Assembly: GCA_001695645.1 (NCBI GenBank)
Contig: LVZN01000012.1
Location: 180,001-212,000 of the forward strand
Origin: Erysipelotrichaceae bacterium MTC7
Lineage (GTDB): Bacteria; Bacillota_I; Bacilli_A; Erysipelotrichales; Erysipelotrichaceae
Direction: 5' to 3'
Length of the DNA: 32,000 nucleotides
Positions 1,198 through 7,610 of the stretch are shown here, one piece after another (positions within the stretch are counted from its first letter, which is position 1; each line of letters starts with the position of its first letter). Both the position numbers and the translations under genes were made by a program. The notes below the pieces were generated by a model, which saw only the letters and a program-made list of their open reading frames with translations, searched no databases and had not been told where the DNA came from.

Positions 1198-1673
1198 AAA
1201 AAGCAATCTATCCAGGAAGTTTTGATCCCATCACCAAAGGACATTACGATATTATTGAACGTTCCAGTAAAATCTTTGATGAAGTTGTCATTGTATTGAT
1301 GAACAATCCGGGAAAACAAGCACTCTTTAGTGTGGAAGAACGTTTGGAAATGATTAAACAAACGTGTACTAGTTTACATAATGTTAGTTTTGATATCGGC
1401 GAAGGACTTACGGTACACTATGCCAAAAGCAAAGAAGCAAATGTCATGATTCGTGGAATTCGTGCGGTTCAAGATTATGAATATGAACTTAGAAATGCGA
1501 CTGCAAATATGTGGTTGGACCCCAAAATTGAAACTTGTTTCTTTATGGCAAAACCTGAGTATTCCTTTCTTTCTAGCAGTTCAGTAAAAGAGATCGCTAG
1601 TTTTGGTGGCGATGTTAGTAAGTTTGTCAATCCGTTTGTGATTGAAAAACTACAAGAGAAATTCAAAAAGTAA
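1194..1673 (+). CDS. coaD: Phosphopantetheine adenylyltransferase
   Basis: N-terminus 'MKKAIYPGSFDPITKGHYDIIERS' carries the T/HxGH nucleotidyltransferase motif. Length is 159 aa. The start overlaps the rsmD stop (ATGA). Confidence 0.95.
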   Translation: MKKAIYPGSFDPITKGHYDIIERSSKIFDEVVIVLMNNPGKQALFSVEERLEMIKQTCTSLHNVSFDIGEGLTVHYAKSKEANVMIRGIRAVQDYEYELRNATANMWLDPKIETCFFMAKPEYSFLSSSSVKEIASFGGDVSKFVNPFVIEKLQEKFKK

Positions 1674-1698
1674 GAACTCGATCGAGTTCTTTTTCTTT
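1672..1698 (+). terminator. Intrinsic terminator after coaD
   Basis: Perfect palindrome AAGAACTCGA/TCGAGTTCTT followed by TTTTTCTTT. Confidence 0.8.
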
Positions 1699-1779
1699 AC
1701 CAAGTAACGTTTTTAATGTAACATAATTGATGTAACAAGTTCCTGTATACTCAAGGTAGATAAAGAGGAGGAACGAAAA

Positions 1780-2139
1780 ATGAAAGATACATTATTAGCG
1801 AAGGAATTATTAAATGGCGTATGGGATGTGGACCACGCAGCGGTCAAACGAGCCTTAACCTATGGAGCAGATGCCAACTGGATTTTTAATGGATATCCAA
1901 TTTTGGTTCATGCTGTTTATACAAGAGATTTAGAAATGGTTGAACTATTAATCTCTCACGGTGCAAGTCAAGTGGGTGAAGCATTGGGATTTGCCTTGGA
2001 ATCAGGATTAGGAGAAATGGTTGAACCTCTTGCGTATCAAGGTATTGTCCCAAAAGCAATTAAAGTAGACGAACGTTTTGGGCCGCATCCGGAACGCTTT
2101 AGTTTACCAAAACACACCTTGCAAAGCATGCAAGCTTAA
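1780..2139 (+). CDS. Small ankyrin-repeat protein (119 aa)
   Basis: SD GAGGAGG sits 8 nt upstream. 'GYPILVHAVYTRDLEMVELLISHGAS' fits the ANK consensus (xxPLHxAxxxGxxExVxLLLxxGA), with a second degenerate repeat on either side. No signal peptide. Confidence 0.7.
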   Translation: MKDTLLAKELLNGVWDVDHAAVKRALTYGADANWIFNGYPILVHAVYTRDLEMVELLISHGASQVGEALGFALESGLGEMVEPLAYQGIVPKAIKVDERFGPHPERFSLPKHTLQSMQA

Positions 2140-2168
2140 AACATCATTACAAATATAAAGGAGTCTAT

Positions 2169-3113
2169 ATGAATCGAAGTGCACTTGTCATCAAAATGTT
2201 GAATTATTTAAAAGCAAACGATGTCGTATCACGCGAAGAAATTGCCAATTATTTAGAAACCAACAAACGTAATATCTCGGAGTTTAAAAAGGAACTCGAA
2301 GTTGCTGGTTATGTGATTGAAAGCATCACTGGTAAAGATGGGGGATACCGTTTGGATGAATCAACGTTGGTCCCAACCATCAATCTAAATGATCGTGAAA
2401 TCGCATCTTTGCATGATGCAAGTGCCTTTTTGCAAATGCATCAGTACAATCAAATTGCAGTGTATAATGAAGCGTTGTTAAAGATTAAAAATGCATTACA
2501 CGAGCCAAATCAAAGCAATAACATTCATTACATTTGGAGTAGTCAAACAACAAATAATGAAAGTCAAATGATTGCTAAAATGCAAGAAGGGCGTGATCGT
2601 CATCAACATGTACGTTTTGCCTATCGTTCTCTGCAAGCAAAAGACTTTGAAACACGTTATGTACAACCATATGAGCTGATTGTTTCAGAAGATGGAAACT
2701 ATGTTCTTGCCTATGATCGTACAGAAAAAAAGAAACCTGGTTTTAAGTTTTTTAAGCTTTCTGAAATACGTATGAAACATGTAGTTGTAGAGCCAAAACG
2801 CTTTGCTCGCGACCCAGACTTCAAAATTGATCAATATGTTGGTAAACAAAACGTCATTCCAGAAGCCTATCGCGTAAAAATCAAAGTTACTGGATTGCAT
2901 GCTGTTTTATTAGCAGAGCGAAGCGTTGGGCTGCTTGAAACAAAAAGTAAAGTTGAAGATGGATTGTTGATGGAATTCACAATGGAAAACAAAACAAAAA
3001 TTCTTGAATTCATCCGTTCGCTGGGTTCAGATTGTACTTTGTTGGAGCCTTTGGAATTAAAAGACGAACTAATTACAAGTTTAAAGGAAACACTTACAAA
3101 GTATATGCTATAA
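2169..3113 (+). CDS. HTH-WYL-WCX transcriptional regulator (BrxR/CapW/PafBC-like architecture)
   Basis: N-terminal winged HTH ('VVSREEIANYLETNKRNISEFKKELEVAGYVIES'). Central WYL-type domain ('VRFAYRS...RYVQPYELIVSEDGNYVLAYD...FKFFKLSEIRMKHV'). C-terminal WCX-like tail ending 'GSDCTLLEPLELKDEL'. SD AAAGGAG upstream. Confidence 0.85.
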   Translation: MNRSALVIKMLNYLKANDVVSREEIANYLETNKRNISEFKKELEVAGYVIESITGKDGGYRLDESTLVPTINLNDREIASLHDASAFLQMHQYNQIAVYNEALLKIKNALHEPNQSNNIHYIWSSQTTNNESQMIAKMQEGRDRHQHVRFAYRSLQAKDFETRYVQPYELIVSEDGNYVLAYDRTEKKKPGFKFFKLSEIRMKHVVVEPKRFARDPDFKIDQYVGKQNVIPEAYRVKIKVTGLHAVLLAERSVGLLETKSKVEDGLLMEFTMENKTKILEFIRSLGSDCTLLEPLELKDELITSLKETLTKYML

Positions 3114-3128
3114 TAGATAAAGCGAATT

Positions 3129-4589
3129 ATGAAACATTTATCTGATATTAATAAATTACAGCGTTGTGACCGTCTGTTGTGGCTTTTTAAAAAGCAACCA
3201 CTGCCATACCAACGCTATGTAATGTTCAATGAAAATATATATGAACTAACGTTACGTTTATTTGGTATGAAGGATTACTTTAAAGGTGCTCCACATGATC
3301 CAAATGAGCGCTTCTTTAGTAGCTTGGATGCTTATGATGTGTTTGTAAGTGTACGTTTGGAATACCAAGGGTTACGAATCAAGATGCCAATCATGCGAAA
3401 AGTACACGATGGATTTGTTCTTTACTATTCATATGCCAACTGTTATCCAAAAGAAAATGAAGCACAAACCTATGCGGATCAAGAATGGGTATTGGATCAT
3501 TTGGGTATTAAGGTAGTGGACCGTTTTGTAGTGCACTTAAATCCCGCATATGTTCGCGATGGTGACTTGGATTTGGAACAACTATTAATTGTAGAAAAGA
3601 AACTCTATAATGATAAAAACAAGGCAAAGCATACCATTGGAAAATTGGTTAATGACCGTAAACGTGACTTAATTCCATTTCTAGAAGCGATTGATCAAGT
3701 GATGGAAGAAGAACCACCACGCAAAATACGAACAAACATTTGTACGCGAAAAGGGAAATGTGATTACTTTGATGTATGTTTTCCAAATCAAAAAGATACA
3801 AGTATTTTAAACCTGGTATCATCATCTAAGAAGTTTGAATTGCACGACCTTAAAGGAATCGAAACGATTTCACAGGTAGATTTTGATGACATTGAAGGTA
3901 CACGCCATCAATATGCACAGTATATGGCAGCGAAAACTGGAACTCTGTTTTTTGATGCAGTTGCTGTGGACTATTTCTTTCGTGATGTAACATATCCAAT
4001 TAGTTATTTGGATTTTGAATGGGAAACTTTTGCGTTCCCTCCATTTGATGGAATGAAACCATACGATGTATTAACGTTTCAGTACTCATTACATATTGAA
4101 AATGCGAACCATAATGTTCGACATAAAGAGTTTTTAGGAAAGGGCGATTGTCGAGAAGCTTTTGTGCAACAATTAATCCATGATATTCCAAAAGAAGGAT
4201 CTGTCATGTGTTTCAATGTAGAAGGTGCAGAAAAATTGCGTTTGAAACAACTTGCCGTACAATTTCCACAATATCACGATGCGCTTGAACAAATTTGGGA
4301 ACGAATGGTGGATTTGGCAATTCCATTTTCAAGTGGGCTGATTTATGACAATAAAATGGCTGGTATGTATTCATTAAAAAAACTCGTCAAGATTTTCACT
4401 AATAAATCGTATGATGATTTAGAAATAGGTGATGGTATAACAGCAATGCAATCCTATGCCAAGTTAGATGAAGCAGATGAGGAAACCATAAAAAATCTAT
4501 TGAAGTATTGTGCAATGGATACCTATGCGATGATTTTGGTGTATCACTGGGTTCTACGACAACTGGCAAAACGAAAGAAAAACAAATAA
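3129..4589 (+). CDS. DUF2779-type protein: N-terminal Cas4/RecB-like 4-Cys (Fe-S) domain fused to a C-terminal DEDDy-type 3'-5' exonuclease-like domain
   Basis: C13 sits in 'LQRCDRLLWL' (Cas4-like N-terminal Cys). C205/C211/C217 sit in 'CTRKGKCDYFDVC'. 'VVHLNPAYVRDG' is typical of the family as I recall it. Exo I is 'YLDFEWET' (D295/E297), Exo II-like is 'CFNVEGAEKLRL', and Exo III is 'KYCAMDTYAM' (Y460-x3-D464). Confidence 0.7.
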   Translation: MKHLSDINKLQRCDRLLWLFKKQPLPYQRYVMFNENIYELTLRLFGMKDYFKGAPHDPNERFFSSLDAYDVFVSVRLEYQGLRIKMPIMRKVHDGFVLYYSYANCYPKENEAQTYADQEWVLDHLGIKVVDRFVVHLNPAYVRDGDLDLEQLLIVEKKLYNDKNKAKHTIGKLVNDRKRDLIPFLEAIDQVMEEEPPRKIRTNICTRKGKCDYFDVCFPNQKDTSILNLVSSSKKFELHDLKGIETISQVDFDDIEGTRHQYAQYMAAKTGTLFFDAVAVDYFFRDVTYPISYLDFEWETFAFPPFDGMKPYDVLTFQYSLHIENANHNVRHKEFLGKGDCREAFVQQLIHDIPKEGSVMCFNVEGAEKLRLKQLAVQFPQYHDALEQIWERMVDLAIPFSSGLIYDNKMAGMYSLKKLVKIFTNKSYDDLEIGDGITAMQSYAKLDEADEETIKNLLKYCAMDTYAMILVYHWVLRQLAKRKKNK

Positions 4590-4627
4590 TTTTATGTTAC
4601 ACTTGTTGTAAAGCAAGAGGTGAGCAT

Positions 4628-5602
4628 ATGCCAAATTTAATTACACATAACATCTTCTGTGAAGAAGTACTCAAAGACATAAACAATAAGAAATACAAGA
4701 ACATCATCACCAACCATATGGAAGAATATCGGATTGGTAGTAATGGGCCGGATTTCTTATTTTTTCATGGCGTTTTTCCTTTGTATAAAACACCAGATTT
4801 ACACATTTCAAAACTAGGTACAAAGTTACATCGAGGTAAAGTGAATGCTTTTTATGAAAGCGCCATTACAACTTATGTACAACATGCCAATAATAAAGTA
4901 AAAGATGCGATGGCTAGTTACATTATCGGCCATTACTTACATTGGCAGTTGGATTCTGTAATGCATCCATACGTCGTTTATCTTACGGGTTTTCAAAGCG
5001 AATACGCTACGTTATACCACCATCGATTTGAATCGATGATGGACACAATCAACCTAAAAAACTATCGAAATACAGACATACGTTCATTTAAAACGTATCA
5101 AATTACAAACCGTGGAAAATATACGGATCGTGCCATAAGTGAAGTATATGTACCTGCAATTCGTGCATGTTTTGATGTGGATATTTCACAAAGTGATATT
5201 GAACAAGCGTTACGTGATTGGCAAAAAGCTCAAAAGTATTTATATGACCCACATAAAGTAAAGTATCGCTTGTTGCGAAGTTATGAAATCTTATCACGTA
5301 AACCAGGTCTTAGTGGCAATGTCGTTTTACCAGATATTGATACACGTTACGATGTGATGAATGTCGCTAAAAAAACATGGTTACATCCAACCACAGGACA
5401 ACCAAGCAATGAAAGTGAAGATGAAGTTTTCCACCGTGCTTTGCATGATGCTCAAATTGGTCTTCCACTTCTATTTGCTGCACTTGATGGAAAAGACATG
5501 AAACCATTCTTAACGTTTTTAGGTAATAAAACCTACAACAATGGCGTTAAACCTAGTGAGGCAACCCGACAATACAAAGATCCTATCTATGATCGCAAAT
5601 AA
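4628..5602 (+). CDS. Cytosolic metallohydrolase of the Zn-dependent phospholipase C / P1-nuclease fold family
   Basis: Strong SD AAGAGGTGAG lies 5 nt before the ATG at 4628; the ORF-track start at 4508 overlaps the upstream gene. The His/Asp pattern is 'ITHNIF', 'GPDFLFFHG', 'GHYLHWQLDSVMHPY' and 'HHRFESMMD', as in PF00882-type uncharacterised Firmicute proteins. No signal peptide. Confidence 0.6.
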   Translation: MPNLITHNIFCEEVLKDINNKKYKNIITNHMEEYRIGSNGPDFLFFHGVFPLYKTPDLHISKLGTKLHRGKVNAFYESAITTYVQHANNKVKDAMASYIIGHYLHWQLDSVMHPYVVYLTGFQSEYATLYHHRFESMMDTINLKNYRNTDIRSFKTYQITNRGKYTDRAISEVYVPAIRACFDVDISQSDIEQALRDWQKAQKYLYDPHKVKYRLLRSYEILSRKPGLSGNVVLPDIDTRYDVMNVAKKTWLHPTTGQPSNESEDEVFHRALHDAQIGLPLLFAALDGKDMKPFLTFLGNKTYNNGVKPSEATRQYKDPIYDRK

Positions 5603-5727
5603 ATCTAATTCATAAGATAGTGGATAGAAGGTATAAGAAAACATATGGATACACTACAGACATGCGCGTATCATGTAAGTAGAAGAGTTTATGAGAAATG
5701 TGTGATTCACACAAGGAAGGAGAACTC

Positions 5728-6903
5728 ATGGAAAATTTTAGTTTTTATGCGCCTACGTATTTCGCGTTCGGAAAAGAAAGTGAAAACGAAGCTGGGAAAT
5801 TGGTGAAACGATTTAAAGGAACAAACGTACTTATTCATTTTGGTGGAGGAAGTGTTGTGCGTTCTGGTTTGCTTGACCGTGTGAAGAAAAGTTTAGACAA
5901 AGAAAACATTAGTTACATGGAACTTGGTGGGGTAAAACCAAATCCAAGAAGTGGACTGGTGTATAAAGGTATTGATATTTGTAAGAACAATGGTATTGAT
6001 TTTGTCTTAGCAGTTGGTGGAGGAAGTGTTATTGATTCTGCCAAAGCGATTGCAGCTGGTGCCATTTACGATGGTGATTTCTGGGATTACTACCAAGGAA
6101 AACCAGTGGATCAAGCATTGCCAATCGGAACGGTATTAACCATTGCGGCGGCAGGAAGTGAAGGTTCACCAGATTCAGTTATTACCAATGAAGATGGTAT
6201 GTTCAAACGTGGAAGTTCAGGAGAAGGCTTACGTCCTAGGTTTTCTATTTTAAACCCAGAACTCACACAAACGTTACCAGCATACCAAAGTGCTGCAGGA
6301 ATTACCGATATTATGGCGCACTTGATGGAGCGTTATATGACAAACACGAAAGATGTTGAAGTTACCGATCGTATGATTGAATCGTTATTATTAACGATGA
6401 TTCACGAAGGTCCAAAAGTAATTGAAAACCCGAATAACTATCAAGCACGCGCAAATATTATGTGGGCTGGAATGATGGCACATAACAACTCATGTGGAGT
6501 GGGTCGTACACAAGACTGGGCAAGTCATGATATTGAACATGAACTTAGTGCAACTTATGATGTTACACATGGAGCTGGACTAGCAGTTGTCATGCCGCAA
6601 GTGATGCGCTACAACATGAATCATGATTTGATGCGTTTTGTCCAACTTGCACATCGTGTATGGAACGTTGAAATTGATTTCAATGATTTTGAAACAACTG
6701 CAAGTAAAGGAATTGAAGCGTTCCAAAGATACTTACGTTCTATTGGCATGCCGACAACATTTGCTGAAATTGATGCAAAAGCAGAAGATATTCCAGCTAT
6801 GGCACATAGTGCATGTTATGGAAATAAACGTACAGGAACTATTGGTGGATTTGTCAAACTCAATGAGGAAGATGTCGCAAATATTTACAAAATGTGTCTA
6901 TAA
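5728..6903 (+). CDS. Iron-containing alcohol dehydrogenase (butanol dehydrogenase/YqhD-like)
   Basis: SD AAGGAGA precedes the ATG at 5728. It has 'AVGGGSVIDSAKAIA' and the metal-binding His region 'HDIEHELSATYDVTHGAGLA'. Confidence 0.9.
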   Translation: MENFSFYAPTYFAFGKESENEAGKLVKRFKGTNVLIHFGGGSVVRSGLLDRVKKSLDKENISYMELGGVKPNPRSGLVYKGIDICKNNGIDFVLAVGGGSVIDSAKAIAAGAIYDGDFWDYYQGKPVDQALPIGTVLTIAAAGSEGSPDSVITNEDGMFKRGSSGEGLRPRFSILNPELTQTLPAYQSAAGITDIMAHLMERYMTNTKDVEVTDRMIESLLLTMIHEGPKVIENPNNYQARANIMWAGMMAHNNSCGVGRTQDWASHDIEHELSATYDVTHGAGLAVVMPQVMRYNMNHDLMRFVQLAHRVWNVEIDFNDFETTASKGIEAFQRYLRSIGMPTTFAEIDAKAEDIPAMAHSACYGNKRTGTIGGFVKLNEEDVANIYKMCL

Positions 6904-6904
6904 G

Positions 6905-6937
6905 AAAAAACTGGAAAGATGATTCCAGTTTTTTTCT
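6905..6937 (+). terminator. Intrinsic terminator after the ADH gene
   Basis: AAAAACTGGAA-agatga-TTCCAGTTTTT followed by a T-run. Confidence 0.85.
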
Positions 6938-6953
6938 ATGCTACAATAGATTC

Positions 6954-7610
6954 ATGAATGAACAACAATTACGAAAATTAAAAAATACTTTATATGCAAG
7001 TACCCGTTATAGTGGAATTGAAGATTACTTTTATGCAGCAGTCTTATTACCGTTGATATTGGTGGATGGCCAGTATCATGTACTTTTCGAAAAACGTGCA
7101 GATACCATTTCACAACCTGGTGAAATTAGTTTTCCTGGAGGTGGAATTGAAACGTTTGACCCTTCGCCTATGGATACAGCAGTACGGGAGACTGTAGAGG
7201 AGTTGGGATGTAAAGAAAACGATATCGAAGTAATTGCGAAACTAGATACCTTGATTTTGGCGAGTGGTATGGTTATTCATGCATTTGCAGGAATTTTGCA
7301 TACCACTCTTGAACAACTCAACTACAATAAAGATGAAGTTGATCACTTATTCACCGTGCCGCTTTCTTTCTTTAATGAACATGAACCTGAGGCATATCAC
7401 TGCAAGGTAGAAATTCAACCATATGTTGTTGATGAATCGGGGCAAACACATGAATTATTGCCAGTAAAGAAATTTAATTTACCAACGCATTATGAAAAGC
7501 CATGGGGAAATGCAACCCAAGTGGTCTATTTTTATGAAACACCCGAAGCTGTTATATGGGGGTTGACTGCAAATATTATGTATGATTTTACAAGAAAAAC
7601 AAAGGAATGA
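6954..7610 (+). CDS. NUDIX hydrolase, CoA pyrophosphatase-like
   Basis: Nudix box 'GGGIETFDPSPMDTAVRETVEELG', preceded by 'PGEISFPGG' typical of the NudL/CoA pyrophosphatase subgroup. The start at 6954 (MNEQQ) was chosen because 6894 lies inside the upstream terminator. Confidence 0.8.
   Translation: MNEQQLRKLKNTLYASTRYSGIEDYFYAAVLLPLILVDGQYHVLFEKRADTISQPGEISFPGGGIETFDPSPMDTAVRETVEELGCKENDIEVIAKLDTLILASGMVIHAFAGILHTTLEQLNYNKDEVDHLFTVPLSFFNEHEPEAYHCKVEIQPYVVDESGQTHELLPVKKFNLPTHYEKPWGNATQVVYFYETPEAVIWGLTANIMYDFTRKTKE

What the first reader, a model, noticed from the sequence alone, without database searches (positions are those of the whole stretch)
1704..5602. WYL-regulator-led accessory cassette: ankyrin protein, HTH-WYL-WCX regulator, Cas4-like/DEDDy nuclease fusion and PLC/P1-nuclease-fold hydrolase
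- **Location:** A tightly packed same-strand block sits between the core pair rsmD-coaD (closed by a strong terminator at 1672-1698) and a housekeeping Fe-ADH.
- **Gene order:** ankyrin protein (119 aa), a 29-nt gap, HTH-WYL-WCX regulator, a 16-nt gap, DUF2779-type protein (486 aa), a 38-nt gap, and a PLC/P1-nuclease-fold metallohydrolase (325 aa).
- **Operon evidence:** I see no terminator inside the block.
- **Family context:** HTH-WYL-WCX regulators (the BrxR, CapW, PafBC and DriD families) are established ligand- or ssDNA-sensing switches. They sit directly upstream of phage-defence or DNA-damage modules.
- **Fit to that pattern:** A predicted Fe-S nuclease/exonuclease fusion followed by a second metal hydrolase is the expected effector arrangement.
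- **Novelty:** I do not recognise this gene combination as any named defence system. I consider it the best candidate in the window for an undescribed system, either anti-phage/anti-plasmid or a WYL-controlled DNA-damage processing module.
- **Caveat:** No integrase or transposase flanks it, so island status is inferred only from the break in core-gene context.
Basis: partly seen in the sequence, partly recalled or inferred. Interest (0 to 1): 0.8.

Follow-up and report, generated by a model that had tools for sequence, protein, structure and literature searches.

The report
Conserved WYL-ankyrin switch beside core exonuclease
The four genes are real, but they form an old, vertically inherited neighbourhood of the gut-bacterial family Erysipelotrichaceae rather than a mobile anti-phage island: a self-regulated sensor pair (ankyrin protein plus WYL regulator, with a newly recognised DNA operator) sits directly upstream of a family-wide exonuclease whose Cas4-like half has lost its catalytic residues.

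Summary
**Observation: confirmed.** The four same-strand ORFs, their gaps, the coaD terminator and the domain calls are all present: ankyrin, HTH-WYL-WCX, DUF2779 (Cas4-like plus DEDDy) and Zn_dep_PLPC.

**Interpretation: partly supported.**
- **Not an accessory island.** Four Breznakia-type genomes carry the block at this site. The ank-WYL-DUF2779 order holds across more than 10 genera. Composition matches the flanks. There is no integrase, tRNA, known defence-system match or phage homologue.
- **Operator.** A conserved inverted repeat, TGTnACAT-N5-ATGTnACA (1717-1737), lies 8 nt upstream of a -10-like TATACT. About 40 related loci have it, always in front of ank-WYL.
- **Separate promoters.** DUF2779 has its own conserved extended -10 (TGCTATAAT, 3106-3114). 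The PLC-like gene has its own promoter in relatives. So the block is a WYL-controlled pair that reads through into a self-sufficient gene.
- **Degenerate Cas4-like domain.** It keeps four cysteines but has lost the catalytic D and ExK. Only the DEDDy exonuclease looks active.
- **PLC/P1 fold.** This rests on Pfam and a His/Asp motif; the fold search found nothing.

WYL-DUF2779 linkage also recurs on plasmids of other phyla, in defence-like contexts. Best reading: a nucleic-acid-stress switch that tunes a housekeeping exonuclease.

The parts
1672..1698 (+). Intrinsic terminator of the upstream rsmD-coaD unit; it marks the 5' border of the block.
   Evidence: 8-bp stem, 4-nt loop, T-run; 17-nt inverted repeat.
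1717..1737 (+). Predicted operator of the WYL regulator: inverted repeat TGTAACAT-aattg-ATGTAACA.
   Evidence: It is the only exact TGTNACA-N7-TGTNACA match in the 32-kb window. The core ACAT-N5-(A/G)TGT is present in front of ank (or of WYL where ank is missing) in about 40 unique genome loci. It is also present in 47 of 48 ank-anchored metagenome loci. It is absent from loci that lack WYL.
1746..1751 (+). -10-like hexamer TATACT of the ank-WYL promoter, 8 nt after the operator. There is no recognisable -35.
   Evidence: at a fixed distance from the repeat: T 37/42, A 37/42, T 32/42, n, n, T 40/42. The two-hexamer scan finds no promoter here.
1780..2139 (+). Small ankyrin-repeat protein (119 aa) with a conserved C-terminal tail FGxYPSRFAP; first gene of the operator-controlled unit.
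   Evidence: Mean pairwise identity is 0.53 across genera, higher than WYL at 0.37.
2169..3113 (+). HTH-WYL-WCX transcription factor.
   Evidence: Pfam WYL and WCX hits are above cut-off. PADLOC generic WYL model: 6e-28. Profile against PDB sequences: PafBC 1.5e-12, DriD about 1e-6, CapW 1e-4, BrxR 4e-3.
3106..3114 (+). Extended -10 promoter TGCTATAAT for DUF2779, overlapping the WYL stop codon (3111-3113).
   Evidence: Sequence. TGnTATAAT lies 22-38 nt upstream of the DUF2779 start in about 35 related loci.
3129..4589 (+). DUF2779 protein: an N-terminal Cas4-like domain with four invariant Cys but no catalytic D/ExK, fused to a C-terminal DEDDy 3'-5' exonuclease domain.
   Evidence: Literature.
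4628..5602 (+). Cytoplasmic Zn_dep_PLPC-family protein (324 aa) with invariant His/Asp/Glu positions. It is a syntenic neighbour and its place in the operon is uncertain.

Best explanation
**What it is.** The locus is a vertically inherited chromosomal neighbourhood of Erysipelotrichaceae, made of three transcription units that run into each other.

1. **ank-WYL.** This pair is autoregulated. The WYL homodimer (HTH-WYL-WCX, closest by sequence to PafBC and DriD) binds the inverted repeat TGTnACAT-N5-ATGTnACA. With the predicted -10, that repeat spans about -41 to -21 of its own promoter.
2. **DUF2779.** This protein is core to the whole family. It is effectively a DEDDy 3'-5' exonuclease carrying a catalytically dead Cas4-like domain that keeps four cysteines. 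That domain probably serves as an Fe-S nucleic-acid-binding module. DUF2779 has its own extended -10 promoter. With only 15 nt and no terminator after WYL, it also receives every transcript that starts at the WYL-controlled promoter.
3. **PLC-like gene.** A cytoplasmic Zn-PLC-family hydrolase follows, sometimes with its own promoter.

**Proposed logic (inferred).** The WYL domain senses a nucleic-acid signal, most likely ssDNA, as in PafBC, DriD and SiwR. It then switches the ank-WYL promoter. This raises the ankyrin protein and, by read-through, adds to the basal DUF2779 level. The result is a substrate-responsive boost of a housekeeping exonuclease. The ankyrin protein would act as a protein-level partner of the regulator or the nuclease.

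**Undecided.** Whether WYL activates or represses is not settled.
For: **Anatomy read from the sequence**
- ORFs and gaps.
- Operator.
- DUF2779 promoter.

**Conservation and vertical descent**
- The same block follows coaD in four Breznakia-type genomes.
- In 75 unique DUF2779-anchored genome loci, WYL is adjacent in 44 of the 50 loci of two clades that have enough flank. It is adjacent in 0 of 23 loci of the third clade.
- Pairwise-identity correlation is 0.78 for DUF2779-WYL against 0.61 for DUF2779-HPF.
- Anchoring on ank instead gives WYL in 40/41 loci, DUF2779 in 37/38 and the operator in 47/48.

**Housekeeping character of DUF2779**
- In WYL-less lineages it sits between an M29 peptidase, a ROK kinase and a radical-SAM/TRAM (UPF0004) enzyme on one side and hpf on the other.
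- The mycoplasma homologue MMSYN1_0389 is quasi-essential in JCVI-syn3.0 (PMC13621843).
- No phage homologues were found.
- GC content is flat.

**Active and inactive sites**
- D295, E297, N363, E368, D395, Y460 and D464 are invariant across phyla.
- The canonical VDIL/EVK motifs of plasmid homologues are replaced by MPIM/YSY-type residues here.
- C13, C205, C211 and C217 are invariant.
- The model has pLDDT 90. Its best fold matches are RICE1, PolB exonuclease domains, Cas4 4r5q and TREX1.

**Regulator affinity**
- The family profile scores best against PafBC and DriD.
- PafBC and SiwR act from a -26 element upstream of a normal -10 with no -35.
- The proximal half-site here would span about -28 to -21.
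Against: - **No expression data.** The signal, and even the binding of WYL to the repeat, are inferred from co-occurrence.
- **Independent DUF2779 expression.** DUF2779 keeps its own promoter. In Dielma it is separated from WYL by about 870 nt that contain hairpins, a separate promoter and no operator. WYL control of DUF2779 is therefore not universal.
- **Adjacency is weak evidence here.** DUF2779-hpf adjacency is conserved too, with no obvious functional link.
- **Conflicting operator geometries.** L042 and L021 have the repeat directly before the WYL ribosome-binding site. L020 and L039 have it 5 nt from a -10. These fit only a repressor. The strict 8-nt spacing and missing -35 in most loci fit an activator.
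- **No SOS evidence.** No SOS box is present.
- **Defence-like relatives.** Distant DUF2779 genes on plasmids sit in defence-like contexts.
Confidence: 0.5

Rival explanations
1. Anti-phage or anti-plasmid defence system. WYL acts as a BrxR/CapW-type repressor that keeps a nuclease effector pair (DUF2779 plus a Zn hydrolase) silent until infection.
For: **Plasmid contexts of DUF2779 in other phyla.** In 13 plasmid contexts examined, the gene lies next to:
- WYL-domain genes in 5 cases, 3 of them directly adjacent;
- AAA or ATP-binding proteins, PD-(D/E)XK nucleases, PLD-family proteins and helicases;
- a Qat system plus dGTPase in one case.

**Regulator features**
- The operator overlaps the promoter, as for repressors, and some variants are only repressor-compatible.
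- BrxR and CapW are detectable relatives of the regulator.
Against: - **No defence signature.** PADLOC gives only generic WYL and Cas4 hits and nothing for the PLC-like protein. There are no phage homologues and PHROGs gives nothing informative.
- **Conserved, not patchy.** The locus is conserved, syntenic and vertically inherited, with no mobility genes, tRNA or GC anomaly.
- **Unregulated in sister lineages.** DUF2779 there sits among housekeeping genes with no regulator and has its own promoter.
- **Missing parts.** The ATPase partner seen on plasmids is absent, and the Cas4-like catalytic residues present in plasmid copies are lost here.
- **Essentiality.** The mycoplasma homologue is quasi-essential in a phage-free minimal cell.
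Confidence: 0.15
2. Conserved synteny with no functional coupling. ank-WYL is an independent autoregulated regulator, possibly with targets elsewhere in the genome. It happens to have been fixed upstream of a constitutive core gene. DUF2779 and the PLC-like gene are unrelated housekeeping enzymes.
For: - DUF2779 and the PLC-like gene have their own promoters.
- In Dielma, WYL and DUF2779 are separate units.
- DUF2779-hpf adjacency is equally conserved.
- Extra exact operator copies occur elsewhere in Merdibacter, in front of a small unrelated ORF. This shows the regulator can have other targets.
Against: - **Linkage survives rearrangement.** ank-WYL was not found away from DUF2779 when the search was anchored on ank (DUF2779 in 37/38 loci). 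This holds despite frequent insertions and rearrangements in the region.
- **Recurrence in other phyla.** WYL-domain genes recur beside unrelated DUF2779 genes on plasmids of Campylobacterota, Alpha- and Betaproteobacteria and Negativicutes. Inheritance alone would not produce that.
- **Forced co-transcription.** In the window, the 15-nt gap with no terminator forces co-transcription.
Confidence: 0.2

Closest known systems
PafBC (Actinobacteria) and SiwR (M. smegmatis), WYL activators of DNA-damage genes
   Same: - They share the HTH-WYL-WCX architecture and give the best PDB sequence matches.
- Their promoter logic is a specific element around -26 plus a normal -10 and no -35. This resembles the repeat-N8-TATnnT arrangement found here.
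- SiwR also controls adjacent genes.
   Different: - PafBC is a heterodimer of two paralogues that reads a non-palindromic motif and controls about 150 genes. Here there is one gene, a palindromic operator, and apparently a local target.
- ssDNA sensing and activation are untested here.
- The ankyrin partner has no counterpart in those systems.
DriD (Caulobacter) and DdaA (Moraxellaceae)
   Same: - DriD is a homodimeric WYL regulator that binds a 20-bp palindrome, autoregulates and is switched by ssDNA.
- DdaA shows that a WYL activator can take over the DNA-damage response of a whole family.
   Different: - On recA, the DriD site lies 17 nt upstream of a real -35.
- Sequence similarity to the window's regulator is modest (about 1e-6).
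- The breadth of the regulon is unknown here.
BrxR / CapW, WYL repressors of BREX and CBASS
   Same: They are WYL regulators encoded at the head of the genes they control, and they bind palindromes that overlap the promoter.
   Different: - No known defence system lies downstream here.
- They are more distant in sequence (1e-4 and 4e-3).
- This locus is core-like rather than island-borne.
DUF2779 / PF11074, including MMSYN1_0389 of JCVI-syn3.0
   Same: It is the same family (E 2.2e-38). The family is already described computationally as a Cas4-like plus DEDD(y) fusion.
   Different: - The mycoplasma protein is reported to keep the D/E/K residues and to have lost two of the four Cys.
- The Erysipelotrichaceae proteins do the reverse: four Cys are kept and D/ExK are lost.
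- The link to a WYL regulator is not mentioned in any of the 7 held papers that name DUF2779.
Zinc-dependent phospholipase C / P1-S1 nuclease superfamily
   Same: - The Pfam Zn_dep_PLPC hit is above cut-off.
- H7, D42, H68, H105, D109, H113, H131 and E135 are invariant. Their spacing is reminiscent of the trinuclear Zn site, a comparison made from my own knowledge.
- The model is all-alpha.
   Different: - No signal peptide is visible, so the protein is probably cytoplasmic.
- It has an invariant MPN N-terminus in place of the N-terminal Trp ligand.
- The confident model found no PDB fold or sequence match.
- The substrate is unknown.

Membership tests
HTH-WYL-WCX transcription factors | WYL domain and WCX domain | tested here: met
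   PF13280 scores 34.6 bits (cut-off 21.8). PF25583 scores 38.1 bits (cut-off 23.9). Both.
HTH-WYL-WCX transcription factors | N-terminal (winged) HTH DNA-binding domain | tested here: inconclusive
   Rrf2, HTH_11 and HTH_34 hits are all below their cut-offs. The PADLOC WYL model covers residues 4-297 (6e-28). N32, R34 and N35 are invariant in the orthologue alignment.
HTH-WYL-WCX transcription factors | Binds a specific operator near the genes it controls | tested here: inconclusive
   A conserved inverted repeat always accompanies the gene and is absent where the gene is absent. Binding itself was not tested.
PafBC | Two paralogous subunits (PafB and PafC, or a fusion) acting as a heterodimer | tested here: not met
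   There is a single 314-aa gene with no adjacent paralogue.
BrxR/CapW-type defence regulators | Located directly upstream of a recognised defence system | tested here: not met
   PADLOC gives only generic WYL and Cas4 hits, and none for the PLC-like protein.
DUF2779 (PF11074) | Match to the family model above cut-off | tested here: met
   131.8 bits against a cut-off of 23.3.
Cas4 / RecB-type PD-(D/E)XK nucleases | Catalytic D ... (D/E)xK motifs | tested here: not met
   In alignment A7, plasmid homologues have VDIL and EVK. All Erysipelotrichaceae members have P87 and Y/F/N residues in those positions. The Pfam Cas_Cas4 score of 20.7 is below the 22.7 cut-off.
Cas4 / RecB-type PD-(D/E)XK nucleases | Four cysteines (one N-terminal, three C-terminal) for an Fe-S cluster | tested here: met
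   C13, C205, C211 and C217 are invariant in 21 sequences. Cluster binding itself is not testable here.
DEDDy 3'-5' exonucleases (RNase H-like) | Conserved acidic residues of Exo I-III plus Tyr four residues before the last Asp | tested here: met
   D295, E297, N363, E368, D395, Y460 and D464 are invariant across four phyla. RNase_H_2 is above cut-off. Fold matches are RICE1, PolB exonuclease domains and TREX1, at weak E-values from 2.5e-3.
Zn-dependent PLC / P1 nuclease fold | Family model match and conserved metal-ligand residues | tested here: met
   PF00882 scores 38.6 bits (cut-off 26.8).
Zn-dependent PLC / P1 nuclease fold | Three-dimensional similarity to solved PLC or P1/S1 structures | tested here: not met
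   The model has pLDDT 93.7. The best Foldseek E-value against PDB is 0.49, with no PLC or P1 entry among the 50 listed matches. All-alpha folds are hard for this method, so this is weak negative evidence.
Ankyrin-repeat proteins | Ankyrin repeat sequence profile | tested here: met
   The single sequence is just under cut-off (26.5 against 27.3). The orthologue profile hits 27,160 proteins. The 150 best listed are mostly long proteins matched in many repeated stretches.
Genomic (defence) island | Variable presence among close relatives, mobility genes or tRNA at the borders, atypical composition | tested here: not met
   The block is present at the same site in four Breznakia-type genomes. The window has no tRNA. 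GC is 0.35-0.39 both inside and outside the block.

The most novel reading that the evidence does not exclude
WYL-DUF2779 may be an ancient partnership that crosses phyla. On plasmids of Proteobacteria, Campylobacterota and Negativicutes, a fully active Cas4-DEDDy nuclease works with an ATPase, and often a PLD-family protein, under a WYL sensor. That arrangement would be an undescribed nucleic-acid surveillance or defence system. In Erysipelotrichia and Mollicutes the nuclease was domesticated into a (quasi-)essential housekeeping exonuclease. In Erysipelotrichaceae it kept a WYL switch, now paired with a dedicated ankyrin protein. That switch would act as an ssDNA-sensing, SOS-independent stress response in gut Bacillota.
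Probability: 0.15. Interest if true: 0.75.

Novelty: new variant of a known kind. Interest (0 to 1): 0.45.

Why it matters
- **A testable handle on an unknown family.** DUF2779 is widespread and uncharacterised, and its mycoplasma member is quasi-essential in the minimal cell JCVI-syn3.0. A dedicated, conserved regulator with a defined operator next to it in culturable gut bacteria makes it possible to ask what signal induces it and what it degrades.
- **WYL regulators in a new setting.** The locus extends WYL-type sensors, so far studied in Actinobacteria, Proteobacteria and defence islands, to a core chromosomal module of gut Bacillota. It adds an unprecedented ankyrin partner.
- **A caution for genome scans.** A tight same-strand block led by a WYL gene is not by itself a defence island.

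Tried and rejected
- **Exact-sequence look-up of the DUF2779 protein:** not on record. The ankyrin protein is 100% identical to one from Erysipelotrichaceae bacterium MTC7.
- **Profile or sequence searches against PDB:** nothing for full-length DUF2779, for its N-terminal half, or for the PLC-like family. The missing Cas4 catalytic residues were therefore shown by alignment with distant plasmid homologues.
- **Fold search of the PLC-like model:** no meaningful match.
- **Rfam:** no RNA family in the window.
- **LexA (Cheo) box:** GAAC-N4-GTTC is absent.
- **Other copies of the operator:** none in the WYL-DUF2779 gaps of Dielma and similar loci, and none elsewhere in the window.
- **A TGTTACA half-site and an RBS-sequestering hairpin before the PLC-like gene:** not conserved in other Breznakia, so dismissed.
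- **Phage origin:** no matches in GenBank phages or IMG/VR.
- **Literature on WYL plus ankyrin:** nothing relevant.

Full report
**1.

The ORF listing gives four same-strand ORFs:
- 1780-2139 (119 aa);
- 2169-3113 (314 aa);
- 3129-4589 (486 aa);
- 4628-5602, counted from the ATG (324 aa).

The gaps are 29, 15 and 38 nt. The block follows a clear intrinsic terminator after coaD (1672-1691 plus T-run).

- Ank_2, E 9.5e-6, just under cut-off;
- WYL and WCX, both above cut-off;
- DUF2779, 2.2e-38;
- RNase_H_2, 8.7e-6;
- a sub-threshold Cas4 match restricted to the Cys-rich C-terminal part of that model;
- Zn_dep_PLPC, 1.3e-9.

A profile of the small protein's orthologues hits 27,160 proteins in the 1.84-billion-protein library. 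The best-scoring hits are mostly long proteins matched in many repeated stretches, so the small protein is a genuine ankyrin-repeat protein. PADLOC returns only generic WYL and Cas4 models and nothing for the fourth protein. NCBIfam and PHROGs add nothing specific.

**2. The organism, and whether this is an island**

The DUF2779 protein is 90% identical to that of Breznakia blatticola. The ankyrin protein is 100% identical to one from "Erysipelotrichaceae bacterium MTC7".

- The same four genes follow ftsW-rsmD-coaD in B. blatticola, Breznakia sp. PF5-3 and B. pachnodae.
- In PF5-3 and B. pachnodae the block is followed directly by hpf. The Fe-ADH+NUDIX pair is therefore the variable segment here, not the block.
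- GC content is flat across the region.
- The window has no tRNA, and no integrase or transposase flanks the block.

Island status is not supported.

**3. Comparative genomics**

A scan of one genome per species with a DUF2779 alignment returned 80 loci. All are Erysipelotrichaceae-type genomes. Searching their six-frame ORFs with the window's proteins and clustering by DUF2779 identity gives three groups:
- **First group** (23 loci; Anaerorhabdus, Solobacterium, Holdemania and others). There is no ank, WYL or PLC-like gene. DUF2779 sits tightly between an M29 aminopeptidase, a ROK kinase and a radical-SAM/TRAM (UPF0004) enzyme on one side and hpf on the other.
- **The other two groups** (52 loci; Breznakia, Dielma, Longicatena, Massilicoli, Amedibacillus, Merdibacter, Traorella, Holdemanella, Floccifex, Absicoccus and others). 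WYL is adjacent in 44 of the 50 loci with enough flank, usually preceded by ank.

Pairwise identities of DUF2779 and WYL correlate at Spearman 0.78. That is higher than DUF2779 with the core gene hpf (0.61).

Anchoring on the ankyrin protein in metagenome contigs gives the converse test. Among unique loci with enough flank:
- WYL follows in 40/41;
- DUF2779 follows in 37/38;
- the operator described below precedes ank in 47/48.

The region is not inert. An IS110 element sits between ank and WYL in Massilicoli. Three genes are inserted there in a Longicatena MAG. A lipoprotein gene or a LexA/CI-like HTH_3-Peptidase_S24 gene sits between WYL and DUF2779 in other lineages. Between 2 and 5 kb separate DUF2779 from the PLC-like gene in many genomes. 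The order ank-WYL-DUF2779 survives all of this.

**4. A conserved operator**

Upstream of ank, or of WYL where ank is missing, lies an inverted repeat with consensus (A/T)TTGTnACAT-N5-ATGTnACAA(T/A). In about 40 unique matched loci its core is always ACA(T/C)-N5-(A/G)TGT.

- In the window it is TGTAACAT-aattg-ATGTAACA at 1717-1737. This is the only exact match to TGTNACA-N7-TGTNACA in 32 kb.
- In 1.26 Mb of related loci, matches with at most one mismatch lie almost exclusively at this position.
- The exceptions are three exact copies in Merdibacter genomes, in front of a small unrelated ORF downstream of hpf.
- The repeat is absent from WYL-less loci.
- Exactly 8 nt downstream of it lies a -10-like TATnnT, with T 37/42, A 37/42, T 32/42 and T 40/42 (window 1746-1751). 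No acceptable -35 exists, and the two-hexamer scan finds no promoter here.

With that -10, the repeat spans about -41 to -21 and its proximal arm about -28 to -21. PafBC contacts -23 to -28 of promoters that have a normal -10 and no -35, and SiwR depends on the same -26 region (PMC8635444 and PMC10693628).

A profile of the WYL orthologues scores best against:
- PafBC, 1.5e-12;
- PafB and PafC, about 1e-8 and 1e-7;
- DriD, about 1e-6;
- CapW, 1e-4;
- BrxR, 4e-3.

These points favour an activator. Three observations point the other way:
- The right arm resembles an extended -10 when n = T.
- In loci that lost ank, the repeat sits directly before the WYL ribosome-binding site (L042, L021).
- In L020 and L039 it sits 5 nt from a -10.

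Those geometries suit only a repressor. I leave the direction of regulation open.

**5. It is not one operon**

A perfect extended -10, TGCTATAAT, lies at 3106-3114. It overlaps the WYL stop codon and ends 14 nt before the DUF2779 start. TGnTATAAT is found 22-38 nt upstream of DUF2779 in about 35 related loci. These include loci where other genes separate WYL from DUF2779.

In Dielma the roughly 870-nt spacer carries hairpins and this promoter but no operator. DUF2779 is therefore self-sufficient for transcription.

In the window the 15-nt gap leaves no room for a terminator. Transcripts from the WYL-controlled promoter must continue into DUF2779.

The PLC-like gene has its own TGcTATAAT in PF5-3 and B. 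pachnodae. PF5-3 also has a terminator-like hairpin plus T-run after DUF2779. In the Holdemanella-type clade the PLC-like gene overlaps the end of DUF2779, including in Dubosiella, which lacks WYL. The PLC-like gene is thus a frequent partner of DUF2779 but not a fixed member of a WYL operon.

**6. What the proteins are**

*DUF2779.*
- The AlphaFold model is confident (pLDDT 90).
- Its best PDB fold matches are the DEDDy exoribonuclease RICE1, family-B polymerase exonuclease domains, Cas4 (4r5q), TREX1 and RecE. Probabilities are high but E-values weak, from 2.5e-3.
- This agrees with earlier computational descriptions of the family as a Cas4-like plus DEDD fusion (PMC3985635, PMC13621843).
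- New here is an alignment with plasmid-borne homologues from four other phyla. Those proteins carry the canonical motifs (..VDIL.., EVK, QxxY). All Erysipelotrichaceae members have Pro and aromatic or other residues at the catalytic D, E and K positions.
- C13, C205, C211 and C217 are invariant.
- The DEDDy residues D295, E297, N363, E368, D395, Y460 and D464 are invariant across phyla.
- The protein is best read as a 3'-5' exonuclease with a degenerate, probably Fe-S-binding, Cas4-like module.
- The mycoplasma homologue is reported to show the opposite pattern (D/E/K kept, two Cys lost) and to be quasi-essential.

*PLC-like protein.*
- Pfam membership and invariant H7, D42, H68, H105, D109, H113, H131 and E135 suggest a multinuclear zinc site.
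- No signal peptide is visible, and the N-terminus MPN is invariant.
- A confident all-alpha model (pLDDT 93.7) finds no PDB fold match. Neither the sequence nor the family profile finds a PDB sequence match.
- The PLC/P1 fold claim therefore rests on sequence only, and the substrate is open.

*Ankyrin protein.*
- It is the most conserved of the four, with mean identity 0.53, and has an invariant-rich tail.
- It is never seen without WYL, whereas WYL sometimes occurs without it.
- This suggests it is an output or partner of the regulator.

**7. The wider family**

- There are no homologues in GenBank phages or IMG/VR.
- Thirty plasmids carry DUF2779 at 24-32% identity.
- In 13 contexts inspected, a WYL-domain gene lies within 5 kb in five: Aliarcobacter cryaerophilus, A. 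butzleri, Selenomonas, Sphingobium and Rhodoferax. It is directly adjacent in three.
- The Sphingobium protein matches the WYL-WCX part of the Erysipelotrichaceae profile (4.5e-10).
- Neighbours are often AAA or ATP-binding proteins, PD-(D/E)XK nucleases, PLD-family proteins and helicases. One locus has a Qat system and dGTPase.

The WYL-DUF2779 association is therefore not just inherited synteny. In those phyla the setting looks like conflict systems. The sample is small, and no background frequency was computed.

**8. Synthesis**

*Shown:*
- the genes, their domains and the operator;
- the separate promoters;
- vertical conservation;
- loss of the Cas4 catalytic residues;
- recurrence of WYL next to DUF2779 in other phyla.

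*Inferred:*
- WYL binds the repeat;
- it senses ssDNA or another nucleic-acid signal;
- switching the promoter raises the ankyrin protein and, by read-through, DUF2779.

I rate this stress-tuned housekeeping exonuclease reading at about 0.5. I rate pure synteny at 0.2 and defence at this locus at 0.15.

The finding is a new variant of a known kind, a WYL-controlled nuclease locus. Its useful new features are the operator, the ankyrin partner and the pseudo-Cas4 domain.

Noticed in passing
window 5698-7610: The Fe-ADH and NUDIX genes between the PLC-like gene and hpf are present only in the window and B. blatticola. In Breznakia sp. PF5-3 and B. pachnodae the PLC-like gene is followed directly by hpf. 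This pair, not the four-gene block, is the locally variable segment.
   Followed up: partly
L036 14234-14254, L040 14228-14248, L043 15088-15108: Merdibacter genomes carry a second exact copy of the operator (TGTGACA-N7-TGTCACA) downstream of hpf. In L036 and L040 a -10-like box follows it. It lies just in front of a 66-86 aa ORF (MKYSIRVKEGWIGYYNC...) with no Pfam match. This may be a second target of the WYL regulator.
   Followed up: partly
L008 6982-7608 (-), L010 4002-4640 (-), L011 6942-7568 (-): In three related MAGs, a LexA/CI-like HTH_3 + Peptidase_S24 gene lies on the opposite strand between WYL and DUF2779. It is divergent from a small membrane-protein ORF and DUF2779. This hints that DNA-damage-type regulation is associated with the locus.
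   Followed up: partly
L086-L098 (plasmids of Aliarcobacter, Helicobacter, Selenomonas, Sphingobium, Rhodoferax, Planktothrix and others): Plasmid-borne DUF2779 genes with intact Cas4 motifs recur next to AAA or ATP-binding proteins, WYL-domain proteins, PLD-family proteins and helicases. In one case they sit beside a Qat system and dGTPase. This looks like an undescribed ATPase-DUF2779(-WYL/-PLD) conflict-system candidate.
   Followed up: partly
window 3106-3131: The DUF2779 start codon (3129) has no Shine-Dalgarno sequence and lies only 14 nt after the TATAAT of its own extended -10. The mRNA from that promoter would be almost leaderless. In other genera the promoter is 30-38 nt upstream and has a good ribosome-binding site.
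   Followed up: no
window 4593-4628: A hairpin (-13.8 kcal/mol, z -2.85) would sequester the ribosome-binding site of the PLC-like gene. It is not conserved in other Breznakia, where a promoter occupies this spacer instead.
   Followed up: yes
L024 5478-6659 (-); L044 1757-6949: An IS110-family transposase in Massilicoli timonensis, and three unrelated genes in a Longicatena MAG, are inserted between ank and WYL. In both cases the operator stays with ank.
   Followed up: partly
window 1703-1709: A third, imperfect box (AGTAACG) lies 14 nt upstream of the distal half-site, in the same register. It is not seen in B. blatticola.
   Followed up: no
L004 7047-7913: Dielma fastidiosa has an approximately 870-nt stretch between WYL and DUF2779 with no ORF of 50 aa or more. 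It contains several hairpins, its nature is unknown, and it shows no similarity to the genes inserted at this position in other lineages.
   Followed up: partly
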